A DNA stretch of 64,000 bases from Nitrosopumilus sp. (lineage in GTDB: Archaea; Thermoproteota; Nitrososphaeria; Nitrososphaerales; Nitrosopumilaceae): the NCBI GenBank assembly GCA_028343855.1, contig JAOLZN010000001.1, forward strand, positions 27,559 to 91,558. Reading direction: 5' to 3'. Positions 1 through 45,258 of this stretch are shown in pieces. A program made the position numbers and the translations under genes. The stretch's first letter is position 1; each line of letters opens with the position of its first letter. The notes under the pieces were generated by a model, which saw nothing but the letters and a program-made list of their open reading frames with translations, searched no databases and was not told the DNA's origin.

Positions 1-806
1 ATATCCAATCTGAAATCGTTTGGTGATTTGTACAAATAAGTTAATGCTACAGCAACTTCTGCAAGTGGTGGTATTCCGGTTCTTTCTCCAATTCCATCAA
101 TAGTTGTGTGAATTTGATCTACTCCTGCATCACATGCTGAAAATGCGTTTGCCACTGCAAATCCTATGTCGTTATGAACATGTGCATCTAACGGAACATC
201 TACTACTTCTCTAACCTTTTTTACAAAATTGTACATTCCAATTGGACGCAAAATTCCTACTGTATCTGGAAGACTAATTCTATCTACTCCTGCTTCTTCA
301 ATAGCTTTACAAACTGTTAATAGAAATTCCGGTTCTGCTCTGCTGCCGTCTTCAACTGTAAATCTAATTTTTAATCCGTGTGATTTTGCATATTCTACAG
401 TTTCTACAGCTCTTTCCAAAGCTTCGTCTCTAGAAATTCGTAGTTTGTCTTTTAGATGTATGTCTGAAATTCCTAAATATGCTGCACACCATTTTGCATC
501 ACAATCTAATGATATGTCTATATCTTGTTTAAGTGCACGTCCATGGGATACTATGTCTGCTGTTAACCCTTGCTTGATAATTGTTTTAGTTGCTTCTTGA
601 TGATCTTTTGATACTACTGGAGATATTTCAATTTGATCAACTCCAAAATAGTCTAACATCCATGCAATCTGAATTCTTTGTTTATTTGTAAATGACACAC
701 CTGGGTGTTGTTCCCCTTCTCTAAGTGTACTGTCTAACACTCTAATCTTCTTTGGATTTTTTTCATATGCGTTATACAGATTTGCATAGTGATTCGGATC
801 TTTCAT
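1..806 (-). CDS. Homocitrate synthase / 2-isopropylmalate synthase family (DRE-TIM), 3' end outside window
   Basis: Manual translation from ATG at 806: MKDPNHYANLYNAYEKNPKKIRVLDSTLREGEQHPGVSF (DSTLREGEQ motif); lies downstream of lysM in the Lys/Arg cluster. Confidence 0.85.
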   Translation of the reverse strand, partial: MKDPNHYANLYNAYEKNPKKIRVLDSTLREGEQHPGVSFTNKQRIQIAWMLDYFGVDQIEISPVVSKDHQEATKTIIKQGLTADIVSHGRALKQDIDISLDCDAKWCAAYLGISDIHLKDKLRISRDEALERAVETVEYAKSHGLKIRFTVEDGSRAEPEFLLTVCKAIEEAGVDRISLPDTVGILRPIGMYNFVKKVREVVDVPLDAHVHNDIGFAVANAFSACDAGVDQIHTTIDGIGERTGIPPLAEVAVALTYLYKSPNDFRLD

Positions 807-833
807 TACTGAATTCGTTAACTAAATTTGATG

Positions 834-859
834 ATATAAACATATTCGTACTATTTTCG
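834..859 (-). promoter_or_regulatory. TATA box (TTTATAT, 834-840) plus possible LysM/Lrp operator (CGTACTATTTTCG, 847-859)
   Basis: TATA lies ~28 bp upstream of the ATG; an imperfect palindrome sits just upstream of the BRE, where Lrp-type activators usually bind; resemblance to the Sulfolobus LysM site is from memory. Confidence 0.3.
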
Positions 860-922
860 TTGAAAATATTTTTAATTGATCCTAAATCAGTATTGAATTA
901 AAATTTTAAACCGAAACTCGTT

Positions 923-1342
923 TTAGATAACTTTTCTTAAAATTATTACAGTATTGGTATCTACCACTCCTGCAATTTTTCTTAATGCATCAATACTATT
1001 GTTTATTTCTGCAATACTTGATGCACTCATAATTGTTGTAATGTCATATTGTCCTGTAATTTCATAAACTGTTTTTACTCCATCTAATTTTGCAAGTTTT
1101 AACGAAACTTTGGATGTATCTGTTGCAGAATCTACTGATACTAATACAATTGCACTAGTAATGTTGTCTTCTCCTAACTCTATTGTAAATTTGTTAATTG
1201 TTTTACTATCTACTAAATTTTTTACTCTTCTTCTCACTGCTGATTCTGAAAGTTTTAATTTTTTACCAATATCTACAAATGATTCTCTAGAATCTTCTTT
1301 TAGATATCCGATAATTCTCTCATCAATTTTATCCTTATACAT
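923..1342 (-). CDS. lysM: Lrp/AsnC family regulator LysM
   Basis: N-terminal HTH (LSESAVRRRVKNL) and RAM domain (VYEITGQYDI); located in the lys/arg cluster. Confidence 0.85.
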   Translation of the reverse strand: MYKDKIDERIIGYLKEDSRESFVDIGKKLKLSESAVRRRVKNLVDSKTINKFTIELGEDNITSAIVLVSVDSATDTSKVSLKLAKLDGVKTVYEITGQYDITTIMSASSIAEINNSIDALRKIAGVVDTNTVIILRKVI

Positions 1343-2516
1343 TTCTCTTCTCTTCCTCTTTTGTTATTACCACATCTAAAGCATGTAAAACTTTTGTTAC
1401 GTCTTCCTCTTTTATCACTAAAGGTGGTAATATTCTTAGAATATTACGTCCTGAATATAACATTAAAACACCTTCATCAATTAATCCCATTAAGATATCT
1501 TTAACTTCAAATTTCATTTCAATTCCAATCATTAGTCCCTTGCCTCTAATTTCTCTAATCATTGTATGTTTTTCTTTTAATTTCTCTAATCCTTCTCTGA
1601 AAATTTCTCCCATCTTTTTAGAGTTTTCTATCAGTCCATCTTCTGTTAATGATGTCAGTGCAGCAATTCCTGCTGCACATGATATTGGATTTCCTCCAAA
1701 TGTTGATGAATGTTCACCCTTGCTTATGGCAGCTAAAATGCCTGGTTTAACTAATGTGGCACCCATTGGTACTCCTCCTGCAATTCCCTTTGCAAGACAT
1801 AAGATATCTGGTACTGTATTCCAATGTTCACCTGCCCATAATCGTCCTGTTCTTCCCAACCCTGCTTGAATTTCGTCAAAAACTAATAGAATTCCTTTTT
1901 CATCACATAGTTTTCTAACTTCTTGTAGAAATCCATCTGGTGCAACAACTATTCCACTTTCTCCTTGAATTGGTTCTAAAATAATGAATGCAGTATCTTC
2001 CTCAATTACAGAACGTAGTGAATCCATGTCCCCAAATGATGCAAAAGAAACTTTTTCAACTAATGGTGCAAATGCTTTTCTATATTTTGGATTAAATGTT
2101 AATGATAATGCTCCAAATGATTTTCCATGATATGATCCTTTCATTGCAACCATTCCTTTTTTGCCAGTAAACTTTCTTGCAAATTTCATTGCAGCTTCAA
2201 CAGCTTCTGCACCACTGTTGTTAAGATGTACTTGTGTTAATCCTTCTGGAGCCATTTCGATAAGTTTTTTCAAAAACCCTTCTCGTGTTTTATTGTATAA
2301 CGAACTATGTACAGTAATTATTTTGTCTACTTGTTCTTTAATTGCATTATTGACTCTTTGATTTTGATGTCCAACTAATGCTACGCCATATCCTCCCATA
2401 CAATCAATGTACTCCTTCCCTTCTGTATCCCATACATGTGCATCAACACCTTTTTCAATTGTAACTGGAAATCTCTGATAGAGATTACCCATATGTTGAT
2501 CTTCACTCATGTTCAA
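1335..2516 (-). CDS. lysJ: [LysW]-aminoadipate semialdehyde / glutamate semialdehyde transaminase (LysJ/ArgD)
   Basis: Class III PLP aminotransferase motifs FDEIQAGLGRTG, LAKGIAGG, STFGGNP. Confidence 0.92.
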   Translation of the reverse strand: MNMSEDQHMGNLYQRFPVTIEKGVDAHVWDTEGKEYIDCMGGYGVALVGHQNQRVNNAIKEQVDKIITVHSSLYNKTREGFLKKLIEMAPEGLTQVHLNNSGAEAVEAAMKFARKFTGKKGMVAMKGSYHGKSFGALSLTFNPKYRKAFAPLVEKVSFASFGDMDSLRSVIEEDTAFIILEPIQGESGIVVAPDGFLQEVRKLCDEKGILLVFDEIQAGLGRTGRLWAGEHWNTVPDILCLAKGIAGGVPMGATLVKPGILAAISKGEHSSTFGGNPISCAAGIAALTSLTEDGLIENSKKMGEIFREGLEKLKEKHTMIREIRGKGLMIGIEMKFEVKDILMGLIDEGVLMLYSGRNILRILPPLVIKEEDVTKVLHALDVVITKEEEKRNV

Positions 2517-3306
2517 TCACCGTACAATTATCATGTGCAATAGCTGTAGAAATAGGATTCTCTTTTTGCCCATTTGCAATAAAAGCTTGTTTTACTCCCA
2601 TATCCAAAGCTTCTGTTGAAGCTAAAATCTTTTTTTCCATACCTGGACCTATTTTTGGTCTAATCTCTTTTGCTTCAGCAAGTGTCAATTTTGGTACCAC
2701 TTTATCATCCATTAAAAGTCCATCTACATTTGTAATGAATAATACTTTGTCACTTCCCACACTTCCTGCAACATATGCTGCAGCTCTATCCCCATCTACA
2801 TTCAGGAATTCTGACTCTTCACTGATTGCTATTGGTGAAATTACTGGCGTCAATCCTTGTTTAAGTAATGATTTAATGAATTCTGAATTTATGTTCTTTA
2901 TTTTGCCTGTATATCCTCCATCAATTGCTTGTTTTCTACCTTTTTCATTCACAATCAATAATTTTTTCTTTCTATCTGCTTCTATCACTCTGGCATCCAC
3001 TCCTGATAATCCAATTGCATTAATTCCATTTTTTTGCAACATTTGAACAATCGTCTTGTTAATCCTACCTGACATAACCATAGTAAAAATTTCTGAGGTT
3101 TCTTTGTCTGTATATCTACTTTTAATTCCACTTGGAGATGTTACAAATTTGGGTTCTTTTCCTAATTGTTCACAAACTTTTGTAACTTCTTTTCCTCCAC
3201 CGTGAACAATTATGATGCCCTCTGTTTCTGCAGTTTTTTTAATATCTAGAATTGTGGATGGATGTAAATCATCAACTACACTTCCTCCAATTTTAATCGT
3301 AATCAT
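2503..3306 (-). CDS. lysZ: [LysW]-aminoadipate/glutamate kinase (LysZ/ArgB)
   Basis: IKIGGS, VHGGG, NVDGDRAA motifs. Confidence 0.93.
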   Translation of the reverse strand: MITIKIGGSVVDDLHPSTILDIKKTAETEGIIIVHGGGKEVTKVCEQLGKEPKFVTSPSGIKSRYTDKETSEIFTMVMSGRINKTIVQMLQKNGINAIGLSGVDARVIEADRKKKLLIVNEKGRKQAIDGGYTGKIKNINSEFIKSLLKQGLTPVISPIAISEESEFLNVDGDRAAAYVAGSVGSDKVLFITNVDGLLMDDKVVPKLTLAEAKEIRPKIGPGMEKKILASTEALDMGVKQAFIANGQKENPISTAIAHDNCTVIEHE

Positions 3307-5408: not shown

Positions 5409-6604
5409 ATTTTTGATTTCCTTTTCTTTTGTAATTTATTAGCTTCCGTTGATTGAATTCCCCATAATTCTACAAATCCTTTGGCTAATCTTTGGTCAAA
5501 TGTTGATTCTACTCCATAAGTGGCAATATCGTGGCTATACAATGAATTATTTGATTTTCTTCCTACTACCCTTAAACTTCCTTTAAATAATTTTAATTTC
5601 ACAGTACCTGAAACTGGTTTTTGTGATTTTTCAATGAAACCATCTAGATCTGCTTTAAGTGGATCTTGCCATAATCCTGAATATACTAAATGTGCCCATT
5701 CATCATCAATCATTGATTTGAATTTATTTTCATGTTTTGTATGAACCATTTTTTCCAAATCTGCATGTGCTTCAATTAAACAAGTTGCTGCAGGAGTTTC
5801 GTATACTTCACGTGATTTAATTCCTACAACCCTATCTTCAATATGATCTATTATTCCAACACCTGCTGCACCAGCTTTTTTGTTGATGTATTCAATTATT
5901 TTTTGAGATCCTTTTATTTTTCCATCTACTTCTACAGGTACACCTTTATCAAATTTAATTTCTAGATATGTTGGTTTATCTGGTAAGTTTTTTGTTTTAA
6001 TCCAAATAAAAGCATCATCTGGTGGTTCATTGTAAGGATCTTCTAAAACTCCTCCTTCAATTGCACGTCCCCATAAATTTTGATCAATACTAAATTTTTT
6101 AGCAACTGCATCAATTTCGATTCCATGTTTTTTTGCAAATTCTAATTCTGTATCCCTGTCTAGATTTTTATCTCTAATTGGTGCTATGATTGGAAGATCT
6201 GAACCTGAACGTAATGTGATATCAAAACGTACTTGATCATTGCCTTTACCTGAACATCCATGTGCTAATGACGTTACCTTTTCTTTTTTTGCAATTTCTA
6301 AAACTTTTTCTGCAATTAATGGTCTAGCAAGAGCTGTTGCTAAACAATATTTTTTTTGATAAAGTGCATTTGCTTTAATTGCTGGAAAAATATAATCATC
6401 AACAAATTCTTTTCTTGCATCAATATTGTAATGTTTTTTAACTCCTAATTTTTTTGCCTTTGCTGCAATTTTTTTAGCATCATCACCTTGACCTACATCA
6501 ACAGTAACTGTGATTACTTCCATATCGTGCTCTTCTTGTAAATATTTTACAACAACAGATGTATCGAGTCCTCCTGAAAATGCAAGAATTCCTTTTTGAG
6601 TCAT
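5405..6604 (-). CDS. argG: Argininosuccinate synthase
   Basis: LAFSGGLDTS, HGCSGKGNDQVRF, SIDQNLWGR; true start taken as MTQKG at 6604, not the ORF-track 6820. Confidence 0.95.
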   Translation of the reverse strand: MTQKGILAFSGGLDTSVVVKYLQEEHDMEVITVTVDVGQGDDAKKIAAKAKKLGVKKHYNIDARKEFVDDYIFPAIKANALYQKKYCLATALARPLIAEKVLEIAKKEKVTSLAHGCSGKGNDQVRFDITLRSGSDLPIIAPIRDKNLDRDTELEFAKKHGIEIDAVAKKFSIDQNLWGRAIEGGVLEDPYNEPPDDAFIWIKTKNLPDKPTYLEIKFDKGVPVEVDGKIKGSQKIIEYINKKAGAAGVGIIDHIEDRVVGIKSREVYETPAATCLIEAHADLEKMVHTKHENKFKSMIDDEWAHLVYSGLWQDPLKADLDGFIEKSQKPVSGTVKLKLFKGSLRVVGRKSNNSLYSHDIATYGVESTFDQRLAKGFVELWGIQSTEANKLQKKRKSKI

Positions 6605-6740
6605 GAAACATCTTTTCCGTAGTATTTTCGAATTTATCTTTTGTGTTGGGCTTATTTTTTCTCCTAATTTTTGATATTTTTCATGACTAGCTTGAGCTAA
6701 AATTCGATGATTATTTAACCGCCAGATATAACGCTGTTTT

Positions 6741-7766
6741 ATGACAATCAAATTGTTACTTTCCATAGGAATTGTTGCATCTGTTCTAGCTTCTATTACT
6801 GGAATCGCCCTTAATTTCAATGAAGAAATTAGTGAAAATAATTTAAGAATTGCATATTTTCCAAATATTGGTCATGCAGTACCAATTGTTGGAATTGAAA
6901 ATAATTTCTTTTTAGAAAAACTTAGTTCTGATACTAAAATTGAAAGTAGAATTTTTGATAGTGGTCCTCAAGTAATAGAATCTTTATTTGCAAATTCTGT
7001 TGATATTGCATATGTTGGACCTGGACCTGCAATTAATGGATTTCTAAATTCAGAAAATAATAATATCCAAATCTTATCTGGTGCTGCAAGTGGAGGTGCA
7101 AGCTTTATTGTTCATCCTGAATCTGAAATTAACTCTGCGTCTGATTTTTCAGGGAAAAAGATTGCTGCTCCTCAAATTGGTAATACTCAAGATGTTTCTT
7201 TACGTCATTATTTATCTGAAAATAATTTAAAACCTGCTGAAAAAGGTGGTTCTGTGATAATTTATAATATTTCTAATCCTGATATTTACACATTATTTGT
7301 AAAAGGTGATATTGATGGTGCATGGGTTGCAGAACCTTGGGCAACAATTTTGGAAACTGAACTTAATGGAAAAAGATTATTTTTTGAAGAAGATTTGTGG
7401 CCCAATAAACAATTTGCTTCTGTATTACTAATTGCAAATACTGATTACGTTAAAAAAAATCCTGAACTTATTTCTAAATTCCTTCTTTCTCATCATCATA
7501 CTGTAGATTGGATTAATGAAAATCCTCTTGAAACTCGAATTATTTTCAATAATTTTTTAAAATCTCATTTAGGTCAATCCTTGTCTGATGATGTGGTTGA
7601 TATTTCACTATCTAATTTAGAAATTACTACTAACCCTGTAAAAGATTCTGTTCATTCTTTTGCTGAAAAAGCTAATGTGTTGGGTTATTTGGGAAGAAAT
7701 GGATATGATATATCTGAAATTTTTTACACTATTGATTCAAATCCTAATCTTGAGGGGGATACTTAG
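6741..7766 (+). CDS. NitT/TauT/SsuA-family ABC transporter substrate-binding protein
   Basis: N-terminal anchor; AYFPNIGHA, DIAYVGPGPAING, GNTQDV, AWVAEPW. Confidence 0.85.
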   Translation: MTIKLLLSIGIVASVLASITGIALNFNEEISENNLRIAYFPNIGHAVPIVGIENNFFLEKLSSDTKIESRIFDSGPQVIESLFANSVDIAYVGPGPAINGFLNSENNNIQILSGAASGGASFIVHPESEINSASDFSGKKIAAPQIGNTQDVSLRHYLSENNLKPAEKGGSVIIYNISNPDIYTLFVKGDIDGAWVAEPWATILETELNGKRLFFEEDLWPNKQFASVLLIANTDYVKKNPELISKFLLSHHHTVDWINENPLETRIIFNNFLKSHLGQSLSDDVVDISLSNLEITTNPVKDSVHSFAEKANVLGYLGRNGYDISEIFYTIDSNPNLEGDT

Positions 7767-41383: not shown

Positions 41384-43423
41384 ATGGAATTTGCTGAAAT
41401 TCTTCCATTTATTGCTGGAATTGCTTCATTTTTGGTAGCTGGTGGTTTGGTTGCTTGGATAACTAAACAACCTTCAGGTACTAAAGAAATGATGGATATC
41501 TCAAATGCTGTAAAAGAAGGTGCTTCAGCATTTCTAAAACGTGAAATGAAAATTATTGTTCCAGTTGCAATTGCCCTTACGGTAATTATTGGAGCCTTTT
41601 TACAACCATCAAATGGAATTGCATTTGCTGTTGGTGCAGCACTATCTGCAGTTGCCGGAATTATCTCATTAAAAATTACAGTTAAAGCAGCAGTAAGAGC
41701 TGCAAATCTTAGTGGCGATGGTCTTGGTAAGACTTTTGCAATGGCCTTTAGGGGTGGAGCTACTGTTGGATTAGCAGTACCTGCAATGGCTCTTTTGGCA
41801 ATTACTGGTTTATACTTAATTTATCCTGATCCAATTACTATTGCAGGAGTTGGAATTGGTGCAAGTCTTATTGCATTATTCATTAGAATCGGCGGAGGTA
41901 TTTTTACTAAAGCTGCAGATATGGGTGCTGACTTAGTTGGAAAAGTTGAAGCAAATATTCCTGAAGATGATCCCCGAAATCCTGCTACAATTGCAGATAA
42001 TGTTGGTGACAATGTTGGCGATGCAGCAGGAATGGGATCTGATGTTTATGAATCTTATATTGTAACAATTCTTGCAGCATTGTTAATTGCTGCATTAATT
42101 GGTGCACCAAACTTTTTCCTATATCCAATTTTAATTGGTTCTTCTGGAATGATTGCATCTATTATTGGTGTTGTAATTGTTGGTTCGAAAGGTGTAACTG
42201 ATGTAATGAAACCTCTTAATCGTTCGTTTTATGTTTCAGCAGCTATTGCAATTGCATTAAACTATATTTTCATCACACAATTCATTGATCAATCTTCAAC
42301 TGCATTAGCTTTGTTTGGCACAACTGTAATTGGTGTCATACTAGTTCCTGTTATTCAAAAAATTACTGACAATTACACTAGTTACAAAAAAGGCCCGGTT
42401 AAAGAAATTGCAGATTCTGCAAAATGGGGATATGCTTCATTAACATTAATGGGAATTATCAAAGGAATGCAATCCACAGGACCGTTTATGATTGCATTAG
42501 TTGTTGCAATTATCCTATCTTATTCTATGGCTTCATCTGCAGCTCCTGAAGGTGCAGATCCTGTACTTTATGGTATATTTGGAACTTCTTTGACTGCAAT
42601 GGCAATGTTGAGTCTTGCAGGAATTGTTCTTAGTATTGATGCCTTTGGTCCTATTGCAGATAATGCTGGTGGAATTGTTGAAATGACTGGAATGGGTGAA
42701 GAAAATCGTAAAGTTACAGATGAAATTGATGCAGTAGGAAATACAACTAAAGCTGTAACTAAGGGATTTGCAATTGCGAGTGCCGCACTAGCTGCATTAG
42801 CTATGATTCAGGCATTTCAATTCGAGGCTGCACATGTATTTGAAGGCGTTTTAGAATTAAATTATAGTTTAACAAATCCTGCAATCATTGTTGGATTATT
42901 AGTTGGTGGTTTGATTCCATTCATAATTACTGGTCAGTTAATCAATGGTGTATCTAGAGCTGCAGGAAAAATGGTCGATGAAGTAAGAAGACAATTCAAA
43001 GCTGATTCTGGTATTCTTGAAGGAACTTCAAAACCTGATTATGCTAAATGTGTAGATATTGCAACTGTAGCTTCAATTAGAGAACTATGGAAACCAGCAA
43101 TTGTTGCAATTATTTCTCCTATTATTTTGGGAATTTTACTAGGACCTACTGCCGTAGCTGGTTTGCTGATGGGTGCAGTTGTAACTGGTATTTTATTGGC
43201 ATATCATTTAGCAAATACTGGCGGCGCATGGGACAATGCCAAGAAATTAGTTGAAATGAATGGCGAAAAGGGTTCTGAAGTTCACAAAGTTGCAGTTGTT
43301 GGTGATATTATTGGTGATCCTTACAAAGATACAGCCGGACCTGCCCTTAACACCGTAATCAAATTACTTAATACTATTGCAATTGTCTTTGTATCTGCAT
43401 TTGTCGCAATAATTTCAATTTAA
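41384..43423 (+). CDS. hppA: Membrane H+-translocating pyrophosphatase, predicted K+-independent
   Basis: DMGADLVGKVE, DNVGDNVGD, GNTTKA (Lys variant), GDPYKDTAGP. Confidence 0.96.
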   Translation: MEFAEILPFIAGIASFLVAGGLVAWITKQPSGTKEMMDISNAVKEGASAFLKREMKIIVPVAIALTVIIGAFLQPSNGIAFAVGAALSAVAGIISLKITVKAAVRAANLSGDGLGKTFAMAFRGGATVGLAVPAMALLAITGLYLIYPDPITIAGVGIGASLIALFIRIGGGIFTKAADMGADLVGKVEANIPEDDPRNPATIADNVGDNVGDAAGMGSDVYESYIVTILAALLIAALIGAPNFFLYPILIGSSGMIASIIGVVIVGSKGVTDVMKPLNRSFYVSAAIAIALNYIFITQFIDQSSTALALFGTTVIGVILVPVIQKITDNYTSYKKGPVKEIADSAKWGYASLTLMGIIKGMQSTGPFMIALVVAIILSYSMASSAAPEGADPVLYGIFGTSLTAMAMLSLAGIVLSIDAFGPIADNAGGIVEMTGMGEENRKVTDEIDAVGNTTKAVTKGFAIASAALAALAMIQAFQFEAAHVFEGVLELNYSLTNPAIIVGLLVGGLIPFIITGQLINGVSRAAGKMVDEVRRQFKADSGILEGTSKPDYAKCVDIATVASIRELWKPAIVAIISPIILGILLGPTAVAGLLMGAVVTGILLAYHLANTGGAWDNAKKLVEMNGEKGSEVHKVAVVGDIIGDPYKDTAGPALNTVIKLLNTIAIVFVSAFVAIISI

Positions 43424-43428
43424 TTTTT

Positions 43429-43605
43429 TTATTCAATTACTAAAGTCATATCTAGTTCATCAATTTGAGCTTGAATTGCTTTTTGTAAAGTTTGATTATG
43501 CATACTACAAAATTTAAAATAATTATCTGTAGTTTGAAAACACCCACAAATCCATTCTGTTTTTTTATCTCCTTCAATTGTACCTTTTGAATATTGTTCA
43601 TTCAT
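43429..43605 (-). CDS. Cys/His microprotein (58 aa; missing from ORF track)
   Basis: MNEQYSKGTIEGDKKTEWICGCFQTTDNYFKFCSMHNQTLQKAIQAQIDELDMTLVIE, ATG to TAA, open in intergenic space. Confidence 0.6.
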   Translation of the reverse strand: MNEQYSKGTIEGDKKTEWICGCFQTTDNYFKFCSMHNQTLQKAIQAQIDELDMTLVIE

Positions 43606-43776
43606 TAAGTAATGATATGCTTTCTTCTAAAAATATTTTTCCTAATTTAATGTGGTATAAATAAAATTATTAAATTTTATATTTTTTTAATAATTTAATT
43701 ACTTTCTTATCAAAATTTATTTTGTAAGATTTTATGAAATAAAAAAATAAAAGTAATTTGTTAAATGAGATTTATT

Positions 43777-44382
43777 CTATAACCCCATTTCTGATTTCAG
43801 TTGTGTACACCAATTTTTAACTCGTTCTTCTGTTTTTTCGTTTTCACTATCCTCATCAACGGGAAGTCCACAAAATTTTTCACCATCTTCTGGTTTCGTA
43901 ATTTCGTTGAGATGTGGAGTTAAACATCTTGAAGATACAAATGTGTAGTCGTCAAGTGGTACATATCCAACCATTTTGGCACCTGCTTTTTCAAAGAATC
44001 TATGTAATTCTTCCATGGCGTCCACAAAATCTTCACCATATCCTACAGAATCACCTAGACCAAATATTGCAACAGGTTTACCTTTGAGATCTAATTCACC
44101 AATTTTTTCTAAGAGTTCATCCCAAACAGTTCCAGATCTTAGTTCTTCAGCTCCAGTATTCCAAGTTGGAATGCCGCAGATTATACCATTAAGATTTGCA
44201 AAATGGGCTAAATCTCCTTCAGAAACATCTATTGCATCAGAAACTGCATCACCTAGCTCATTTTTTATTGTTACACAAACTTGTTCTGTTTTACCAGTCT
44301 GTGTTCCAAAATATAGGCCAATTGATGCTGTTGGTGCTACCTCATGTGGTGTATCGTCATCGTGTGCATGTGGTCCAGCCAT
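43777..44382 (-). CDS. Long-chain flavodoxin, cyanobacterial/algal IsiB-like, with His/Asp-rich N-terminal extension
   Basis: FMN loop GTQTGKT, GIPTWNTG..RSGT.WD, AIFGLGDS..Y, KFCGLPVDEDSE, QLKSEMGL. Confidence 0.92.
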   Translation of the reverse strand: MAGPHAHDDDTPHEVAPTASIGLYFGTQTGKTEQVCVTIKNELGDAVSDAIDVSEGDLAHFANLNGIICGIPTWNTGAEELRSGTVWDELLEKIGELDLKGKPVAIFGLGDSVGYGEDFVDAMEELHRFFEKAGAKMVGYVPLDDYTFVSSRCLTPHLNEITKPEDGEKFCGLPVDEDSENEKTEERVKNWCTQLKSEMGL

Positions 44383-44585
44383 GACCTGTATTGATAAAAA
44401 TTCAATTTAATTGGTTAGTTGATTATAAGATTAGATAACAAAGATCCATTACAACGATTAGTTTTAAAAATGGGAATTAATTTTTATTTAGTATCTTAGA
44501 ATATGATTGTAAAATTTCCTTTATCTATAATACTTTGATTATCTTAGTAAAATAGATCTTTATGCTTTGGTCTGCCATAGACGTG

Positions 44586-44720
44586 AGTATTATCTAAGAT
44601 CATAGAGTACTGGAAATATTGGAATCTAATAATAGTAATCTGATTAGCCGACCAAGGAATTATTGCTATTGGCATTTCATTCCGAAATATTTTTCAGTAC
44701 TCTTTTTAGATTTGTATACT
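44586..44720 (+). other. ~135-nt imperfect fold-back hairpin (ncRNA or MITE-like remnant)
   Basis: Six nested complementary blocks, including AGAGTACTG/CAGTACTCT, with G-U pairs on the + strand. Confidence 0.6.
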
Positions 44721-44772
44721 AAGTATGGATAATCTTCTGATATTTTTTAAAGAGATTTTTTAAATACAAATT

Positions 44773-44952
44773 ATGAAAAATCAATGTGATTTTTGTAAAG
44801 AATTAACTAAAACACAAGCAATTCATTGTAATAGTTGTATTAAGAATCATCAAATTTGTTCAATTTGTTTGGTGGAATACAAACAAGAAATGAAAATTAA
44901 ACCTGTTCGAAAACATACTCTTTATCAAAGTAATTTAAAAAAATGGGCATAA
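44773..44952 (+). CDS. Cys-rich zinc-finger microprotein (59 aa; missing from ORF track)
   Basis: MKNQCDFCKELTKTQAIHCNSCIKNHQICSICLVEYKQEMKIKPVRKHTLYQSNLKKWA: three CxxC plus His; TTTAAA about 27 bp upstream. Confidence 0.7.
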   Translation: MKNQCDFCKELTKTQAIHCNSCIKNHQICSICLVEYKQEMKIKPVRKHTLYQSNLKKWA

Positions 44953-45000
44953 TTTCAACTATAATTTAAAAATTATTTTTTAAAAAAGAAAAAAAAATGT

Positions 45001-45258
45001 TTAAGGACAGCCTTCCATTTTTTGAATGAAATAACCTTTTTCCTTAATTGCCTGTTCTACAGGCTCTGGACAAGATTGTGAGTGACAGAATGTACATTCG
45101 TTTTGTGTCATTTCTGCTTCTCCCTCTCCTATTTCTTTTAACCATTCCTTACCAAATTCAATGGCTTTAGGATGATCTTTTTCACCAGTAATTACATCAA
45201 AGTGCATTGTGTGACCATCTGCTGCTTTGACATAAGTGTCGTATACGTGAATTTCCAT
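45001..45258 (-). CDS. DUF2024 family protein (NE1680-like)
   Basis: IHVYDTYV...GHTMHFDV...C.FCHSQ...GYFIQKMEGC. Confidence 0.85.
   Translation of the reverse strand: MEIHVYDTYVKAADGHTMHFDVITGEKDHPKAIEFGKEWLKEIGEGEAEMTQNECTFCHSQSCPEPVEQAIKEKGYFIQKMEGCP

What the first reader, a model, noticed from the sequence alone, without database searches (positions are those of the whole stretch)
43777..44382. Cyanobacterial/algal-type (IsiB-like) flavodoxin in an ammonia-oxidising archaeon
Seen in sequence: long-chain flavodoxin motifs IGLYFGTQTGKTE, CGIPTWNTGAEELRSGTVWD, AIFGLGDS, DAMEELH, KFCGLPVDEDSE and QLKSEMGL. Established (from memory): the PTWNTG..RSGT.WD insertion and FCGLP.DEDSE tail characterise marine picocyanobacterial IsiB and algal flavodoxins, which replace ferredoxin under iron limitation. 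The gene sits between very AT-rich spacers in an islet after hppA. Inference: it was acquired laterally from phytoplankton, letting an AOA lineage swap Fe-S ferredoxin for FMN in low-iron water, for example for its complex I lacking NuoEFG or its 2-oxoacid oxidoreductases.
Basis: partly seen in the sequence, partly recalled or inferred. Interest (0 to 1): 0.75.

Follow-up and report, generated by a model that had tools for sequence, protein, structure and literature searches.

The report
Picocyanobacteria-type flavodoxin cassette in marine AOA
A marine ammonia-oxidising archaeon carries a real, transcribed gene for an iron-free electron carrier (long-chain flavodoxin); its closest non-archaeal relatives are in Prochlorococcus-type cyanobacteria, it sits in different places in related genomes, and its existence in these archaea is already annotated, so the finding is sound but only moderately new.

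Summary
The ORF at 43777-44382 (minus strand, 201 aa) is there exactly as described. It is a canonical long-chain flavodoxin by Pfam, by NCBIfam above the curated cut-offs, by its FMN-binding motifs, and by an AF2 model that matches Anabaena and Chondrus structures.

It is not a private acquisition of this lineage. It belongs to an AOA-only clade (bootstrap 98-99) found in Nitrosopelagicus, Nitrosopumilus and relatives. That clade is sister to, not nested in, a Prochlorococcus-type FldA/IsiB clade (bootstrap 88; 94.5 after Dayhoff recoding). Composition and codon usage match the host, and the gene has an archaeal TATA box and poly-T terminator. An old inter-domain transfer is therefore likely, with the donor unresolved.

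The gene is patchy: about 25 of at least 466 species-level genomes. The ~0.73-0.78 kb transcription unit sits in about 8 different contexts. None of 80 relatives has it at this site, and two metagenomes hold a contig that joins across it.

Marine metatranscriptome contigs cover the CDS at far greater depth than its neighbours.

The iron-sparing role is inferred, not shown. AOA flavodoxin is already annotated, and isiB transcripts have already been reported for Nitrosopelagicus.

The parts
43777..44382 (-). Flavodoxin gene (fldA/isiB type), 201 aa, long-chain class
   Evidence: ORF. PF00258. NF006738 and TIGR01752 above cut-off. PDB matches E~1e-35. AF2 pLDDT 91.8. Foldseek target-normalised TM-score 0.91-0.92 to Anabaena and Chondrus flavodoxins.
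44326..44382 (-). Codons 1-19: His/Asp-rich N-terminal extension (MAGPHAHDDDTPHEVAPTA). It is absent from the Nitrosopelagicus and 174-aa types and is predicted disordered.
   Evidence: Conserved in P0001-P0004 and L001-L010. An in-frame 12-nt (DAPT) indel occurs after 44327 in metagenome contigs. pLDDT is 61-64. The TATA box lies upstream of this ATG.
43888..43926 (-). Approximate position of the 11-12 residue insertion (within ..RCLTPHLNEITKPED..) in the long-chain loop. It is specific to the window and Nitrosopelagicus subclade.
   Evidence: Loop length Y146-F170 is 25-26 residues in 25/37 AOA sequences and 14-18 in every other group. Aligned against Anabaena and Chondrus. Modelled with pLDDT 94-97.
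44401..44415 (-). Archaeal BRE/TATA-like box ACCAATTAAATTGAA. TTAAAT lies at -28..-23 from the ATG, which implies a leaderless or very short-leader mRNA.
   Evidence: Consensus CAATTAAATAGAAT is conserved at the same distance from the ATG in the window and L001-L010. A TTAAATA box lies at a similar distance in the Nitrosopelagicus, 174-aa and P0040-type loci.
43734..43753 (-). Poly-T tract (CTTTTATTTTTTTATTT), terminator-like, about 25-45 nt after the stop codon. Homology between different genomic contexts ends here.
   Evidence: The 3' flanks of the window and L001-L010 are alike for about 45 nt and then diverge.
43702..44482 (-). Inserted flavodoxin unit (promoter, CDS, terminator) relative to relatives that lack it at this site
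   Evidence: L125 and L135 align to window 45300-44483 and 43701-43301 only. None of 80 loci has the flavodoxin here. Homology to flavodoxin loci in other contexts spans at most 44454-43699. One contig in each of two metagenomes joins 43608 to 44595, skipping 986 nt.
44483..44957 (+). 'orf59 module': a small Cys-rich ORF (44773-44952, 59 aa, three CxxC pairs) plus about 290 bp of conserved leader. It is a discrete unit, present or absent independently of the flavodoxin.
   Evidence: It has the same borders in L125/L135 (DUF2024|module|orf58) and in L001/L002/L004/L010, where it lies downstream of the flavodoxin instead of upstream. No Pfam hit.
44604..44704 (+). Conserved long hairpin in the orf59 leader (candidate structured RNA)
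   Evidence: MFE -30.3 kcal/mol, z = -4.5. Consensus fold -34.2 on the + strand against -12.6 on the - strand, with G-U-preserving changes. No Rfam family.
43429..43605 (-). orf58: small conserved Nitrosopumilaceae ORF that normally sits 60-70 bp from DUF2024. It marks the native side of the insertion site.
   Evidence: Present next to DUF2024 in nearly all of 80 loci.
41384..43423 (+). hppA (H+-translocating pyrophosphatase), neighbour; a present/absent gene in the same hot spot
   Evidence: PF03030, E=2e-230. Present in most and absent in about 13 of 80 loci between orf58 and orf125.
45001..45258 (-). DUF2024 gene, the conserved anchor on the other side of the site
   Evidence: PF09630. 466 matching stretches in species-representative genomes, 85-100% identical in the best 80.

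Best explanation
The gene encodes a functional FMN-binding long-chain flavodoxin: a small, iron-free, low-potential electron carrier.

It belongs to a clade restricted to marine Nitrosopumilaceae. That clade most likely arose from one old inter-domain transfer linking it to the Prochlorococcus/marine-picocyanobacterial FldA/IsiB lineage. The original archaeal location was probably next to a 2x[4Fe-4S] ferredoxin gene (Fer4-fld-RFC-GINS-MCM).

Since then the gene has been fully domesticated, with host-like composition, its own archaeal TATA promoter and a poly-T terminator. It has been lost from most lineages and relocated or exchanged among AOA as a minimal ~0.73-0.78 kb transcription unit. 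In this genome it lies between the orf59 module and orf58, downstream of hppA.

Inferred working: the protein takes over low-potential one-electron transfers otherwise done by Fe-S ferredoxins (8 Fe per 2x[4Fe-4S] protein). Candidate partners are ferredoxin:NADP oxidoreductase, 2-oxoacid:ferredoxin oxidoreductases, an NDH-1 lacking NuoEFG, and radical-SAM or cobalamin reduction. This would lower the cell's iron quota in iron-poor surface ocean.

Shown: identity, fold, motifs, phylogenetic position, patchiness, insertion status, transcription in the sea.
Inferred: FMN binding, the partners, the iron-sparing role, the direction of the old transfer.
For: Identity:
- Family assignment.
- Phosphate loop TQTGKT and the stacking Trp74 and Tyr115, aligned to Anabaena W57 and Y94, are conserved.

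Clade:
- NJ tree of 209 sequences: AOA 99%, picocyanobacterial clade 100%, the two together 88%.
- After Dayhoff-6 recoding: 98%, 97% and 94.5%.
- An AOA profile ranks all 78 picocyanobacterial-clade sequences (224-244 bits) above the best eukaryote-like one (206 bits).
- Named members of that clade are Prochlorococcus.

Domestication:
- GC 0.381, GC3 0.178, RSCU correlation 0.85, like the neighbouring genes.
- Conserved TATA box and poly-T tract.

Patchiness and mobility:
- 25 AOA loci were found with a scan whose patterns include the clade-wide peptide AGAKMVGY, against 466 DUF2024-positive stretches.
- About 8 distinct contexts.
- 0 of 80 relatives carry it at this site.
- AH-541-I17 has an empty site here and its flavodoxin on another contig.
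- Contigs in two metagenomes join across the gene, consistent with an allele that lacks it.

Ferredoxin adjacency: seen in two deep branches of the AOA clade.

Expression: metatranscriptome contig depth is 700-3300 (X28) and 300-800 (X30) over the CDS, against 0-50 over hppA and about 0-2 over orf59. isiB (K03839) transcripts assigned to Nitrosopelagicus co-varied with iron-transporter transcripts in the North Pacific deep chlorophyll maximum (PMC13096325).
Against: - No experiment or metadata here links the gene to iron.
- The only culture study found (N. maritimus SCM1, PMC12974425) reports a 'flavodoxin' that did not respond to Fe. I could not tell whether that protein is a homologue. No SCM1 protein is among the named close hits.
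- The trees are neighbour-joining only, built from top hits. Rooting and transfer direction are therefore open, and the AOA clade is sister to, not inside, the cyanobacterial clade.
- Contig depth is a poor measure of expression, and many of the RNA contigs are 90-95% alleles, probably the Nitrosopelagicus type, rather than this exact allele.
- The genome scans work through exact peptide patterns and many assemblies are incomplete, so 25/466 is approximate.
Confidence: 0.72

Rival explanations
1. The flavodoxin is a constitutive housekeeping reductant, not an iron-stress substitute. It would serve, as FldA does in enterobacteria, as the electron donor for cob(II)alamin reduction and adenosylation, methionine-synthase reactivation and radical-SAM enzymes. 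That role would matter in AOA, which are large cobalamin producers.
For: The best NCBIfam model is FldA, not a cyanobacteria-specific model. The gene carries its own promoter and is covered at high depth in several unrelated metatranscriptomes. The SCM1 'flavodoxin' is reported as constitutive under Fe limitation (PMC12974425). Flavodoxin acts as the cobalt reductant in B12 synthesis (Fonseca and Escalante-Semerena 2001, as cited in PMC5816740).
Against: A housekeeping reductant should not be missing from about 95% of related species-level genomes, including 14 of the 15 complete chromosomes among the 80 loci. Field transcripts of Nitrosopelagicus isiB varied together with iron-uptake genes.
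Confidence: 0.2
2. This is a recent, direct acquisition from phytoplankton by this particular AOA lineage. The AT-rich islet would be the scar of that event.
For: The nearest non-AOA relatives are Prochlorococcus-type proteins. The gene is an insertion relative to 80 relatives.
Against: Identity to picocyanobacterial proteins is only 52-57%. The gene is nested in an AOA clade with deep internal branches and two lineage-specific indels. Composition matches the host. The promoter and terminator are archaeal. The closest copies (84-94%) are in other AOA, at other loci.
Confidence: 0.03
3. Assembly or binning artefact: a bacterial or algal fragment chimerically joined into an archaeal contig.
For: The closest genome-collection hit (L001, 94%) is labelled as an Alphaproteobacteria MAG.
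Against: Metagenome contigs from independent studies span 44083-44624 and 44316-44906 (flavodoxin into the orf59 module). Others cover 43301-43710 and 43729-43873. The gene occurs in many AOA single-cell genomes on contigs with archaeal genes. L001 has 30% GC and carries the same orf59 module, so its label is more likely the error.
Confidence: 0.02

Closest known systems
Prochlorococcus / marine picocyanobacterial flavodoxin FldA (IsiB), e.g. P. marinus and Prochlorococcus sp. MIT 1307 proteins (P0093, P0082)
   Same: Long-chain class. Same 4-residue insertion in the Trp loop (PTWNTGAxxxRSGTxWD). Same FCGLPxDEDSE tail. 52-57% identity. Sister clade in the tree.
   Different: The phosphate loop is TQTGKT here and TTTGKT there. 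The window subclade adds an 11-12 residue insertion in the long loop and a 19-23 residue His/Asp-rich N-terminus. The gene is an isolated archaeal transcription unit with a TATA box; isiA is absent around it, and no photosystem is expected in an AOA as a partner (established knowledge, not tested).
Chondrus crispus (red alga) flavodoxin, PDB 2FCR
   Same: Same fold (Foldseek target-normalised TM-score 0.92, rmsd 1.9 A, 42% identity). Shares the Trp-loop insertion.
   Different: Different C-terminal tail. No long-loop insertion. The eukaryote-like group scores lower against the AOA profile than every picocyanobacterial sequence.
Anabaena PCC 7119/7120 flavodoxin (IsiB), PDB 1FLV/1RCF
   Same: Long-chain flavodoxin fold. 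FMN stacked between Trp57 and Tyr94, both conserved here. 40-41% identity, target-normalised TM-score 0.91.
   Different: Lacks the 4-residue Trp-loop insertion and the AOA long-loop insertion.
Annotated AOA flavodoxins: 'flavodoxin FldA [Nitrosopumilus sp. S4]', 'Flavodoxin protein [Marine Group I thaumarchaeote SCGC RSA3]', JGI 'flavodoxin I', and the isiB (K03839) transcripts assigned to Nitrosopelagicus in PMC13096325
   Same: Same AOA clade (61-86% identity). Same TATA box position.
   Different: The S4, RSA3 and AAA799-D11 proteins are the 174-aa form, without the long-loop insertion or N-terminal extension. The Nitrosopelagicus form has the insertion but no extension. Each sits at a different locus.

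Membership tests
Long-chain flavodoxin (FldA/IsiB/NifF; PF00258, TIGR01752, NF006738, K03839) | Sequence match to the curated family models above their cut-offs | tested here: met
   PF00258 70.6 bits (cut-off 25). NF006738 208.8 bits (cut-off 172). TIGR01752 158.4 bits (cut-off 146.75).
Long-chain flavodoxin (FldA/IsiB/NifF; PF00258, TIGR01752, NF006738, K03839) | FMN phosphate-binding loop (T/S)-x-T-G-x-T near the N-terminus | tested here: met
   TQTGKT at residues 27-32. T29, G30 and T32 are nearly invariant across 75 sequences.
Long-chain flavodoxin (FldA/IsiB/NifF; PF00258, TIGR01752, NF006738, K03839) | Aromatic pair stacking the isoalloxazine ring (Anabaena Trp57 and Tyr94) | tested here: met
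   Trp74 and Tyr115 align to them. Conserved in 36/37 AOA sequences.
Long-chain flavodoxin (FldA/IsiB/NifF; PF00258, TIGR01752, NF006738, K03839) | About 20-residue loop interrupting the fifth beta strand (long-chain versus short-chain) | tested here: met
   Full-length alignment to 169-173 aa long-chain structures. Short-chain models match residues 24-139 only. The loop is present and lengthened by 11-12 residues.
Long-chain flavodoxin (FldA/IsiB/NifF; PF00258, TIGR01752, NF006738, K03839) | Three-layer alpha/beta flavodoxin fold | tested here: met
   AF2 pLDDT 91.8, pTM 0.86. Foldseek E down to 8e-19, target-normalised TM-score 0.91-0.92.
Long-chain flavodoxin (FldA/IsiB/NifF; PF00258, TIGR01752, NF006738, K03839) | Binds FMN and cycles at low potential (semiquinone/hydroquinone) | not testable with these tools
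   Needs purified protein.
IsiB in the strict sense (cyanobacterial iron-stress-induced flavodoxin) | Induced by iron limitation | not testable with these tools
   Only indirect field data: Nitrosopelagicus isiB transcripts co-varied with Fe-uptake genes (PMC13096325). The SCM1 'flavodoxin' is constitutive (PMC12974425), and its homology is unknown.
IsiB in the strict sense (cyanobacterial iron-stress-induced flavodoxin) | Encoded in an isiA-isiB operon or cyanobacterial genomic setting | tested here: not met
   A monocistronic unit between archaeal genes with an archaeal TATA box. No isiA-like ORF in the flanks.
IsiB in the strict sense (cyanobacterial iron-stress-induced flavodoxin) | Branches inside the cyanobacterial clade | tested here: not met
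   The picocyanobacterial clade is monophyletic without the AOA (bootstrap 100; 97 recoded). The AOA are its sister.
Known mobile element or genomic island (IS, integron cassette, integrated virus or plasmid) | Recombinase, integrase or transposase gene, tRNA target, or clear terminal or target-site repeats | tested here: not met
   No such ORF within the islet. No tRNA in the 64 kb. No significant flanking direct repeat: a roughly 59-bp stretch of the L135 spacer aligns to both flanks, but the two flanks are not significantly alike (99/500 shuffles score as high). No viral carrier.

The most novel reading that the evidence does not exclude
The flavodoxin unit (promoter, CDS, terminator; ~0.75 kb) and the neighbouring ~0.47 kb orf59 module (a structured-RNA leader plus a Cys-rich mini-ORF) may be members of an undescribed kind of recombinase-less gene cassette in streamlined marine AOA.

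The observations behind this reading:
- They occupy a hot spot (DUF2024 ... orf125) where the orf59 module, the flavodoxin unit, orf58 and hppA are each independently present or absent.
- The flavodoxin occurs in about 8 intergenic sites.
- The flavodoxin and the orf59 module appear in both orders ([orf59 module][fld] here, [fld][orf59 module] in L001/L002/L004/L010), as expected from a circular intermediate or cassette shuffling.

A second, independent novel reading: the clade-specific long-loop insertion and the His/Asp-rich N-terminus could retarget the cyanobacterial-type carrier to an archaeal partner, such as the NuoEFG-less NDH-1.
Probability: 0.15. Interest if true: 0.7.

Novelty: new member of a known kind. 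Interest (0 to 1): 0.38.

Why it matters
Ammonia-oxidising archaea are among the most abundant cells in the ocean, and their iron demand shapes where nitrification happens. A flexible, well-transcribed, iron-free replacement for Fe-S ferredoxin, carried by only some populations, would be a concrete genetic marker of iron-niche partitioning among marine AOA. It could be counted directly in metagenomes and metatranscriptomes.

The sister relationship to Prochlorococcus-type flavodoxin adds a case of gene sharing between the two dominant streamlined plankton groups of the oligotrophic ocean. The way the minimal transcription unit relocates without any recognisable mobility gene bears on how streamlined archaeal genomes keep a flexible gene pool.

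None of this changes what a flavodoxin is. The gene's existence in AOA is already in the databases and in one 2026 field study.

Tried and rejected
- Exact-sequence look-up of the window protein: nothing on record.
- Santoro et al. 2015 (N. brevis genome) is not held. The supplements of PMC12974425 are not held, so the identity of the SCM1 'flavodoxin' could not be checked.
- Seven full-text searches for flavodoxin or isiB with AOA terms found no paper on a cyanobacterial origin.
- Virus-mediated transfer: an IMG/VR scan found no relative. INPHARED holds only hits of 39% identity or less, from gut samples and Salmonella.
- Rfam: nothing at gathering thresholds over the 64 kb. The only sub-threshold hit lies inside the CDS and is a chance match.
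- tRNA integration target: no tRNA in the window.
- Target-site duplication: about 59 bp of the empty-site spacer in L135 aligns to both flanks of the insert, but the two flanks are not significantly similar to each other (99/500 shuffles). I left this as inconclusive.
- Compositional attraction between AT-rich AOA and Prochlorococcus as the cause of the grouping: rejected. Dayhoff-6 recoding raised the support to 94.5%, and FYMINK/GARP fractions do not differ between groups.
- hppA as part of the islet: rejected. hppA is at this position in most relatives.
- Paralogous copies of either module in the window: none.
- The first read-laying run failed on a filter at 44960-45008 and was repeated on 42900-44950.
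Full report
OBSERVATION

The ORF is real and sits at exactly the stated coordinates: 43777..44382, minus strand, ATG start, 201 aa. Its translation contains all six quoted motifs.

It matches Pfam Flavodoxin_1 (E=2e-19). It passes the curated cut-offs of two NCBIfam long-chain models: NF006738 'flavodoxin FldA' at 208.8 bits against 172, and TIGR01752 at 158.4 against 146.75. Short-chain models match only the first two thirds of the protein.

Against the PDB, the best sequence matches are Anabaena, Synechococcus elongatus and Chondrus crispus long-chain flavodoxins, with E~1e-35 and 40-42% identity over the full length. An AlphaFold2 model built on a 75-sequence alignment is confident (pLDDT 91.8, pTM 0.86). 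It superposes on those structures with target-normalised TM-scores of 0.91-0.92.

The FMN phosphate loop (TQTGKT) is conserved. So are Trp74 and Tyr115, the two aromatic residues that stack on the flavin, which align with Anabaena Trp57 and Tyr94. The spacers on both sides are very AT-rich: 12% and 25% GC.

WHOSE GENOME

Sixteen neighbouring genes (nadC, spt4, rpoE', mrp, hppA, DUF2024, a JAB protein, a two-domain cupredoxin, ctaB, cdc48 and others) are collinear with Marine Group I / Nitrosopumilaceae genomes. In the closest ones they are 84-100% identical, most of them at least 94% (L124, L125, L127-L129, L134, L135).

RELATIVES AND PHYLOGENY

A search of 5.8 billion proteins returns three tiers of hits.
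- 80-91% identity: marine metagenome proteins of 183-205 aa.
- 61-69% identity: a 174-aa form named in NCBI as 'flavodoxin FldA [Nitrosopumilus sp. S4]' and 'Flavodoxin protein [Marine Group I thaumarchaeote SCGC RSA3]'.
- 52-57% identity: a large set whose named members are Prochlorococcus FldA.

An index-free search of 1.84 billion representatives adds many 220-350 aa proteins with N-terminal extensions. These are eukaryote-like (one is from the green alga Trebouxia) and reach at most 57% identity.

I built a neighbour-joining tree of 209 near-full-length cores (172 columns, 200 bootstraps).
- The AOA sequences form one clade, which includes P0040 (99%).
- The Prochlorococcus-type sequences form another (100%).
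- The two are sisters (88%), to the exclusion of the eukaryote-like sequences, Chondrus, Anabaena and other bacteria.

P0040-type contigs are plainly archaeal, with L7Ae, S28e, L24e, aIF5B, archease, eIF6, RFC, GINS and MCM.

Both AOA and Prochlorococcus have AT-rich genomes, so I checked for compositional attraction. I repeated the analysis with Dayhoff-6 recoding and got 98%, 97% and 94.5%. Amino-acid composition classes do not differ between groups.

Independently, a profile of the AOA clade scores all 78 picocyanobacterial-clade sequences (224-244 bits) above the best eukaryote-like one (206 bits). Mean identity is 57% against 44% and 39%.

Discrete characters agree.
- The 4-residue insertion in the Trp loop is in 37/37 AOA sequences, 78/78 picocyanobacterial, 47/59 eukaryote-like and 5/35 other sequences.
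- The ...FCGLPxDEDSE tail is seen in the AOA and picocyanobacterial sequences printed and differs in the eukaryote-like ones printed.

But the AOA gene is sister to the picocyanobacterial clade, not a member of it. At 52-57% identity the split is old.

THREE ARCHAEAL FORMS

Within the AOA clade there are three forms.
- A 173-174 aa form (Nitrosopumilus S4, RSA3/AAA799-D11, P0040).
- A 183-192 aa form in Nitrosopelagicus. It has an 11-12 residue insertion (…RCLxPHLNEITxPEDGE…) in the long-chain loop. No other flavodoxin in the sample has a loop that long: 25-26 residues against 14-18.
- The window's 201-205 aa form. It adds a His/Asp-rich N-terminus, MAGPHAHDDDxPHEV(T/A)PT(DAPT)A.

The loop insertion is modelled with high confidence (pLDDT 94-97). 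The N-terminus is predicted disordered. An in-frame 12-nt indel (DAPT) is polymorphic in metagenomes, and the TATA box lies upstream of the long-form ATG. Both facts support translation of the extension.

DOMESTICATION

The CDS has GC 0.381, GC3 0.178 and a codon-usage correlation of 0.85 with neighbouring genes. It is indistinguishable from hppA, ctaB or cdc48.

A box CAATTAAATAGAAT lies at the same distance from the ATG in the window and L001-L010, and a TTAAATA box lies at a similar distance in the other AOA forms. In the window, TTAAAT sits at -28..-23, coordinates 44405-44410. This is an archaeal BRE/TATA arrangement that implies a leaderless or near-leaderless mRNA.

About 25-45 nt after the stop codon there is a conserved poly-T tract. 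Beyond it, the different genomic contexts diverge. The unit shared between contexts is therefore just promoter, CDS and terminator. It spans about 725-745 bp at most, window 44454 to about 43700.

DISTRIBUTION AND SITE

A scan of one genome per GTDB species, using patterns that include the clade-wide peptide AGAKMVGY, found the gene in 25 AOA assemblies. These are labelled Nitrosopumilus, Nitrosopelagicus, Nitrosarchaeum, Marine Group I, Thaumarchaeota or Crenarchaeota. One, L001, is labelled as an Alphaproteobacteria MAG and is probably misbinned.

The conserved neighbour DUF2024 was found in 466 stretches. Among the best 80 of these loci, 15 are complete chromosomes, and only one (OZ253550) carries the flavodoxin. 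No cultured type strain appears among the named close hits. The gene is therefore patchy, at roughly 5% of species-level genomes. This is an approximate, pattern-limited figure.

In all 80 loci the order is JAB-DUF2024-orf58-(hppA)-orf125-…, with DUF2024 and orf58 about 60-70 bp apart. None has the flavodoxin there. The variants at this site are:
- The closest genome, L124, has DUF2024-orf58-hppA.
- L125 and L135 additionally have the orf59 module.
- Only the window has orf59 module + flavodoxin + orf58.

L125 and L135 align to window 45300-44483 and 43701-43301. This defines a ~780-bp insert, 43702-44482.

The genome that provides L135 (AH-541-I17) has core proteins 83-98% identical to the window's, apart from a divergent JAB at 56%. 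It keeps its own flavodoxin, 84% identical, on another contig in a different context. So the two copies are not positional orthologues.

In two metagenomes a contig joins 43608 to 44595, skipping 986 nt that include the gene. This is consistent with a co-occurring allele that lacks the flavodoxin. The shorter side of that joint is only 34 nt, so the evidence is modest.

Across all loci the gene occupies about eight contexts:
1. The window's own site.
2. L001 (between purK and a PLP enzyme).
3. L002.
4. L004/L010.
5. L005/L006.
6. A peroxiredoxin-aquaporin context, shared by Nitrosopelagicus and by L003/L009.
7. Fer4-fld-RFC-GINS-MCM.
8. The sites of the 174-aa form (L021, L023).

Context 7 places the gene directly after one or two genes for 2x[4Fe-4S] ferredoxin-domain proteins. 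It is shared by L007/L008 (window-type protein) and by the P0040-type contigs, which lie on the other side of the root of the AOA clade. It is therefore the most parsimonious ancestral site, and it is a telling neighbour for a ferredoxin substitute.

I found no recombinase, no tRNA and no significant flanking repeat, and no viral contig carries the gene. How the unit moves is unknown.

One oddity remains. The ~0.47-kb orf59 module has the same borders wherever it occurs. It lies upstream of the flavodoxin in the window but downstream of it in L001/L002/L004/L010, which is a circular permutation of the pair.

IS IT AN ARTEFACT?

No. Contigs from independent marine metagenomes span the flavodoxin 5' end into the orf59 module (44316-44906 and 44083-44624). 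Others cover hppA-orf58 up to 43710-43716 and 43729-43873. The only break is at a poly-A/T run. The gene is also present on archaeal contigs of many single-cell genomes.

EXPRESSION

The CDS is held by many marine metatranscriptomes. In two of them the contig depth over the CDS is 700-3300 and 300-800. Over hppA it is 0-50 and 0-13, and over orf59 it is about 0-2 and 0.

Two caveats apply. Contig depth is a rough measure, and many of these contigs are 90-95% alleles, probably the Nitrosopelagicus form. Contigs with 1-3 mismatches are nevertheless present at depth 100-200.

A 2026 field study independently lists isiB (K03839) transcripts from 'Cyanobacteria and Nitrosopelagicus' as higher, together with iron transporters, under one eddy regime. 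The iron-requiring petF rose under the other regime (PMC13096325).

MECHANISM

Shown: a complete, conserved, transcribed long-chain flavodoxin.

Inferred from established flavodoxin biology: it binds FMN and replaces Fe-S ferredoxin in low-potential electron transfer. This would save iron, 8 Fe per 2x[4Fe-4S] ferredoxin.

Three observations fit an iron-sparing accessory role:
- the ferredoxin adjacency at the probable ancestral site;
- the patchy distribution, typical of a flexible gene;
- the field co-variation with iron-uptake transcripts.

Partners are not identified. The candidates are FNR, which ancestral reconstruction assigns to the AOA ancestor (PMC7554672), the 2-oxoacid:ferredoxin oxidoreductases, and the NuoEFG-less NDH-1.

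The main rival is a constitutive FldA-like housekeeping role, for example as reductant for cobalamin adenosylation or for radical-SAM enzymes. The constitutive 'flavodoxin' reported in SCM1 supports this rival. The gene's absence from most related genomes argues against it.

COMPARISON AND NOVELTY

The protein is a member of the long-chain flavodoxin family: every testable defining feature is met. It is not IsiB in the strict sense. It has no isiA, it is not inside the cyanobacterial clade, and iron induction is untested.

The presence of flavodoxin in AOA is already annotated in NCBI and JGI and has been mentioned in 2026 papers. I found no paper describing any of the following:
- its sister relationship to picocyanobacterial FldA/IsiB;
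- the clade-specific loop insertion and N-terminal extension;
- the relocating minimal cassette.

It is a new member, with decorations, of a well-known kind.

VERDICT

Interest is moderate (0.38).

Noticed in passing
window 44604-44704 (+), within the orf59 leader 44483-44772: A conserved ~100-nt long hairpin upstream of the Cys-rich mini-ORF orf59. MFE is -30.3 kcal/mol with z = -4.5. The consensus fold of 7 homologues is much better on the + strand (-34.2 against -12.6 kcal/mol), with G-U-preserving changes. No Rfam family matches. It may be a structured leader or a small RNA.
   Followed up: partly
window 44483-44957; L001 8676-9146; L002 8706-9175; L004 8714-9184; L010 1593-2063; L125 and L135 about 6310-6774: The orf59 module has the same borders in every context. 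It lies upstream of the flavodoxin in the window but downstream of it in four other genomes, which is a circular permutation of the pair. It also occurs without the flavodoxin at the DUF2024 site.
   Followed up: partly
window 41384-43423 and the 80 loci L124-L203: hppA (H+-pyrophosphatase) is itself present or absent between orf58 and orf125. It is absent in about 13 of 80 Nitrosopumilaceae loci, for example L126, L130-L132, L138, L139, L142, L149, L154, L165, L166, L172 and L194. The DUF2024-orf125 interval is therefore a hot spot where several single-gene units come and go.
   Followed up: partly
L007 5806-6892, L008 6443-7639, L204 6350-6862, L205 5896-6408: In two deep branches of the AOA flavodoxin clade, the gene follows one or two genes for 170-178 aa 2x[4Fe-4S] ferredoxin-domain proteins and precedes RFC-GINS-MCM. 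This is probably the ancestral site, and it gives a functional pairing of ferredoxin and flavodoxin.
   Followed up: partly
window 44416-44455 (-) and the equivalent region of L001-L010; L011/L014 about 35-60 nt upstream of the ATG: Upstream of the TATA box, the window-type promoters carry two or three TTTGTAAT / TTATAAT-like units. The Nitrosopelagicus L011 and L014 promoters carry a perfect palindrome CTGATCT-CCC-AGATCAG instead (L022 has a degenerate copy). These are possible regulator binding sites, and they differ between subclades.
   Followed up: no
window 44326-44382 (-); metagenome contigs at 44327: The N-terminal extension is His/Asp-rich (HAHDDD..H), which suggests a possible metal-binding tail. 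A 12-nt in-frame indel (DAPT) is polymorphic in natural populations.
   Followed up: no
L001 (CBDBCB010000006.1): This contig is labelled as an Alphaproteobacteria MAG. It carries the flavodoxin unit and the orf59 module at 87% and 79% nucleotide identity to the window (flavodoxin protein 94% identical), and it has 30% GC. It is probably a misbinned AOA contig.
   Followed up: no
L044 (CBDBLO010000002.1, 2.18 Mb contig): A 'Nitrosopumilus sp.' MAG with 60% GC over the locus keeps the whole nadC...hppA-DUF2024...cdc48 synteny. hppA sits directly next to DUF2024, with no orf58, orf59 or flavodoxin. From memory, this GC and this contig size resemble the sponge symbiont Cenarchaeum; I did not check it.
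   Followed up: no
L011 6458-7252 and 8674-9564 (likewise L014, L016, L018, L022): In Nitrosopelagicus the flavodoxin is flanked on both sides by paralogous genes of one unknown family (264 and 296 aa, no Pfam hit), followed by a peroxiredoxin and an aquaporin.
   Followed up: no
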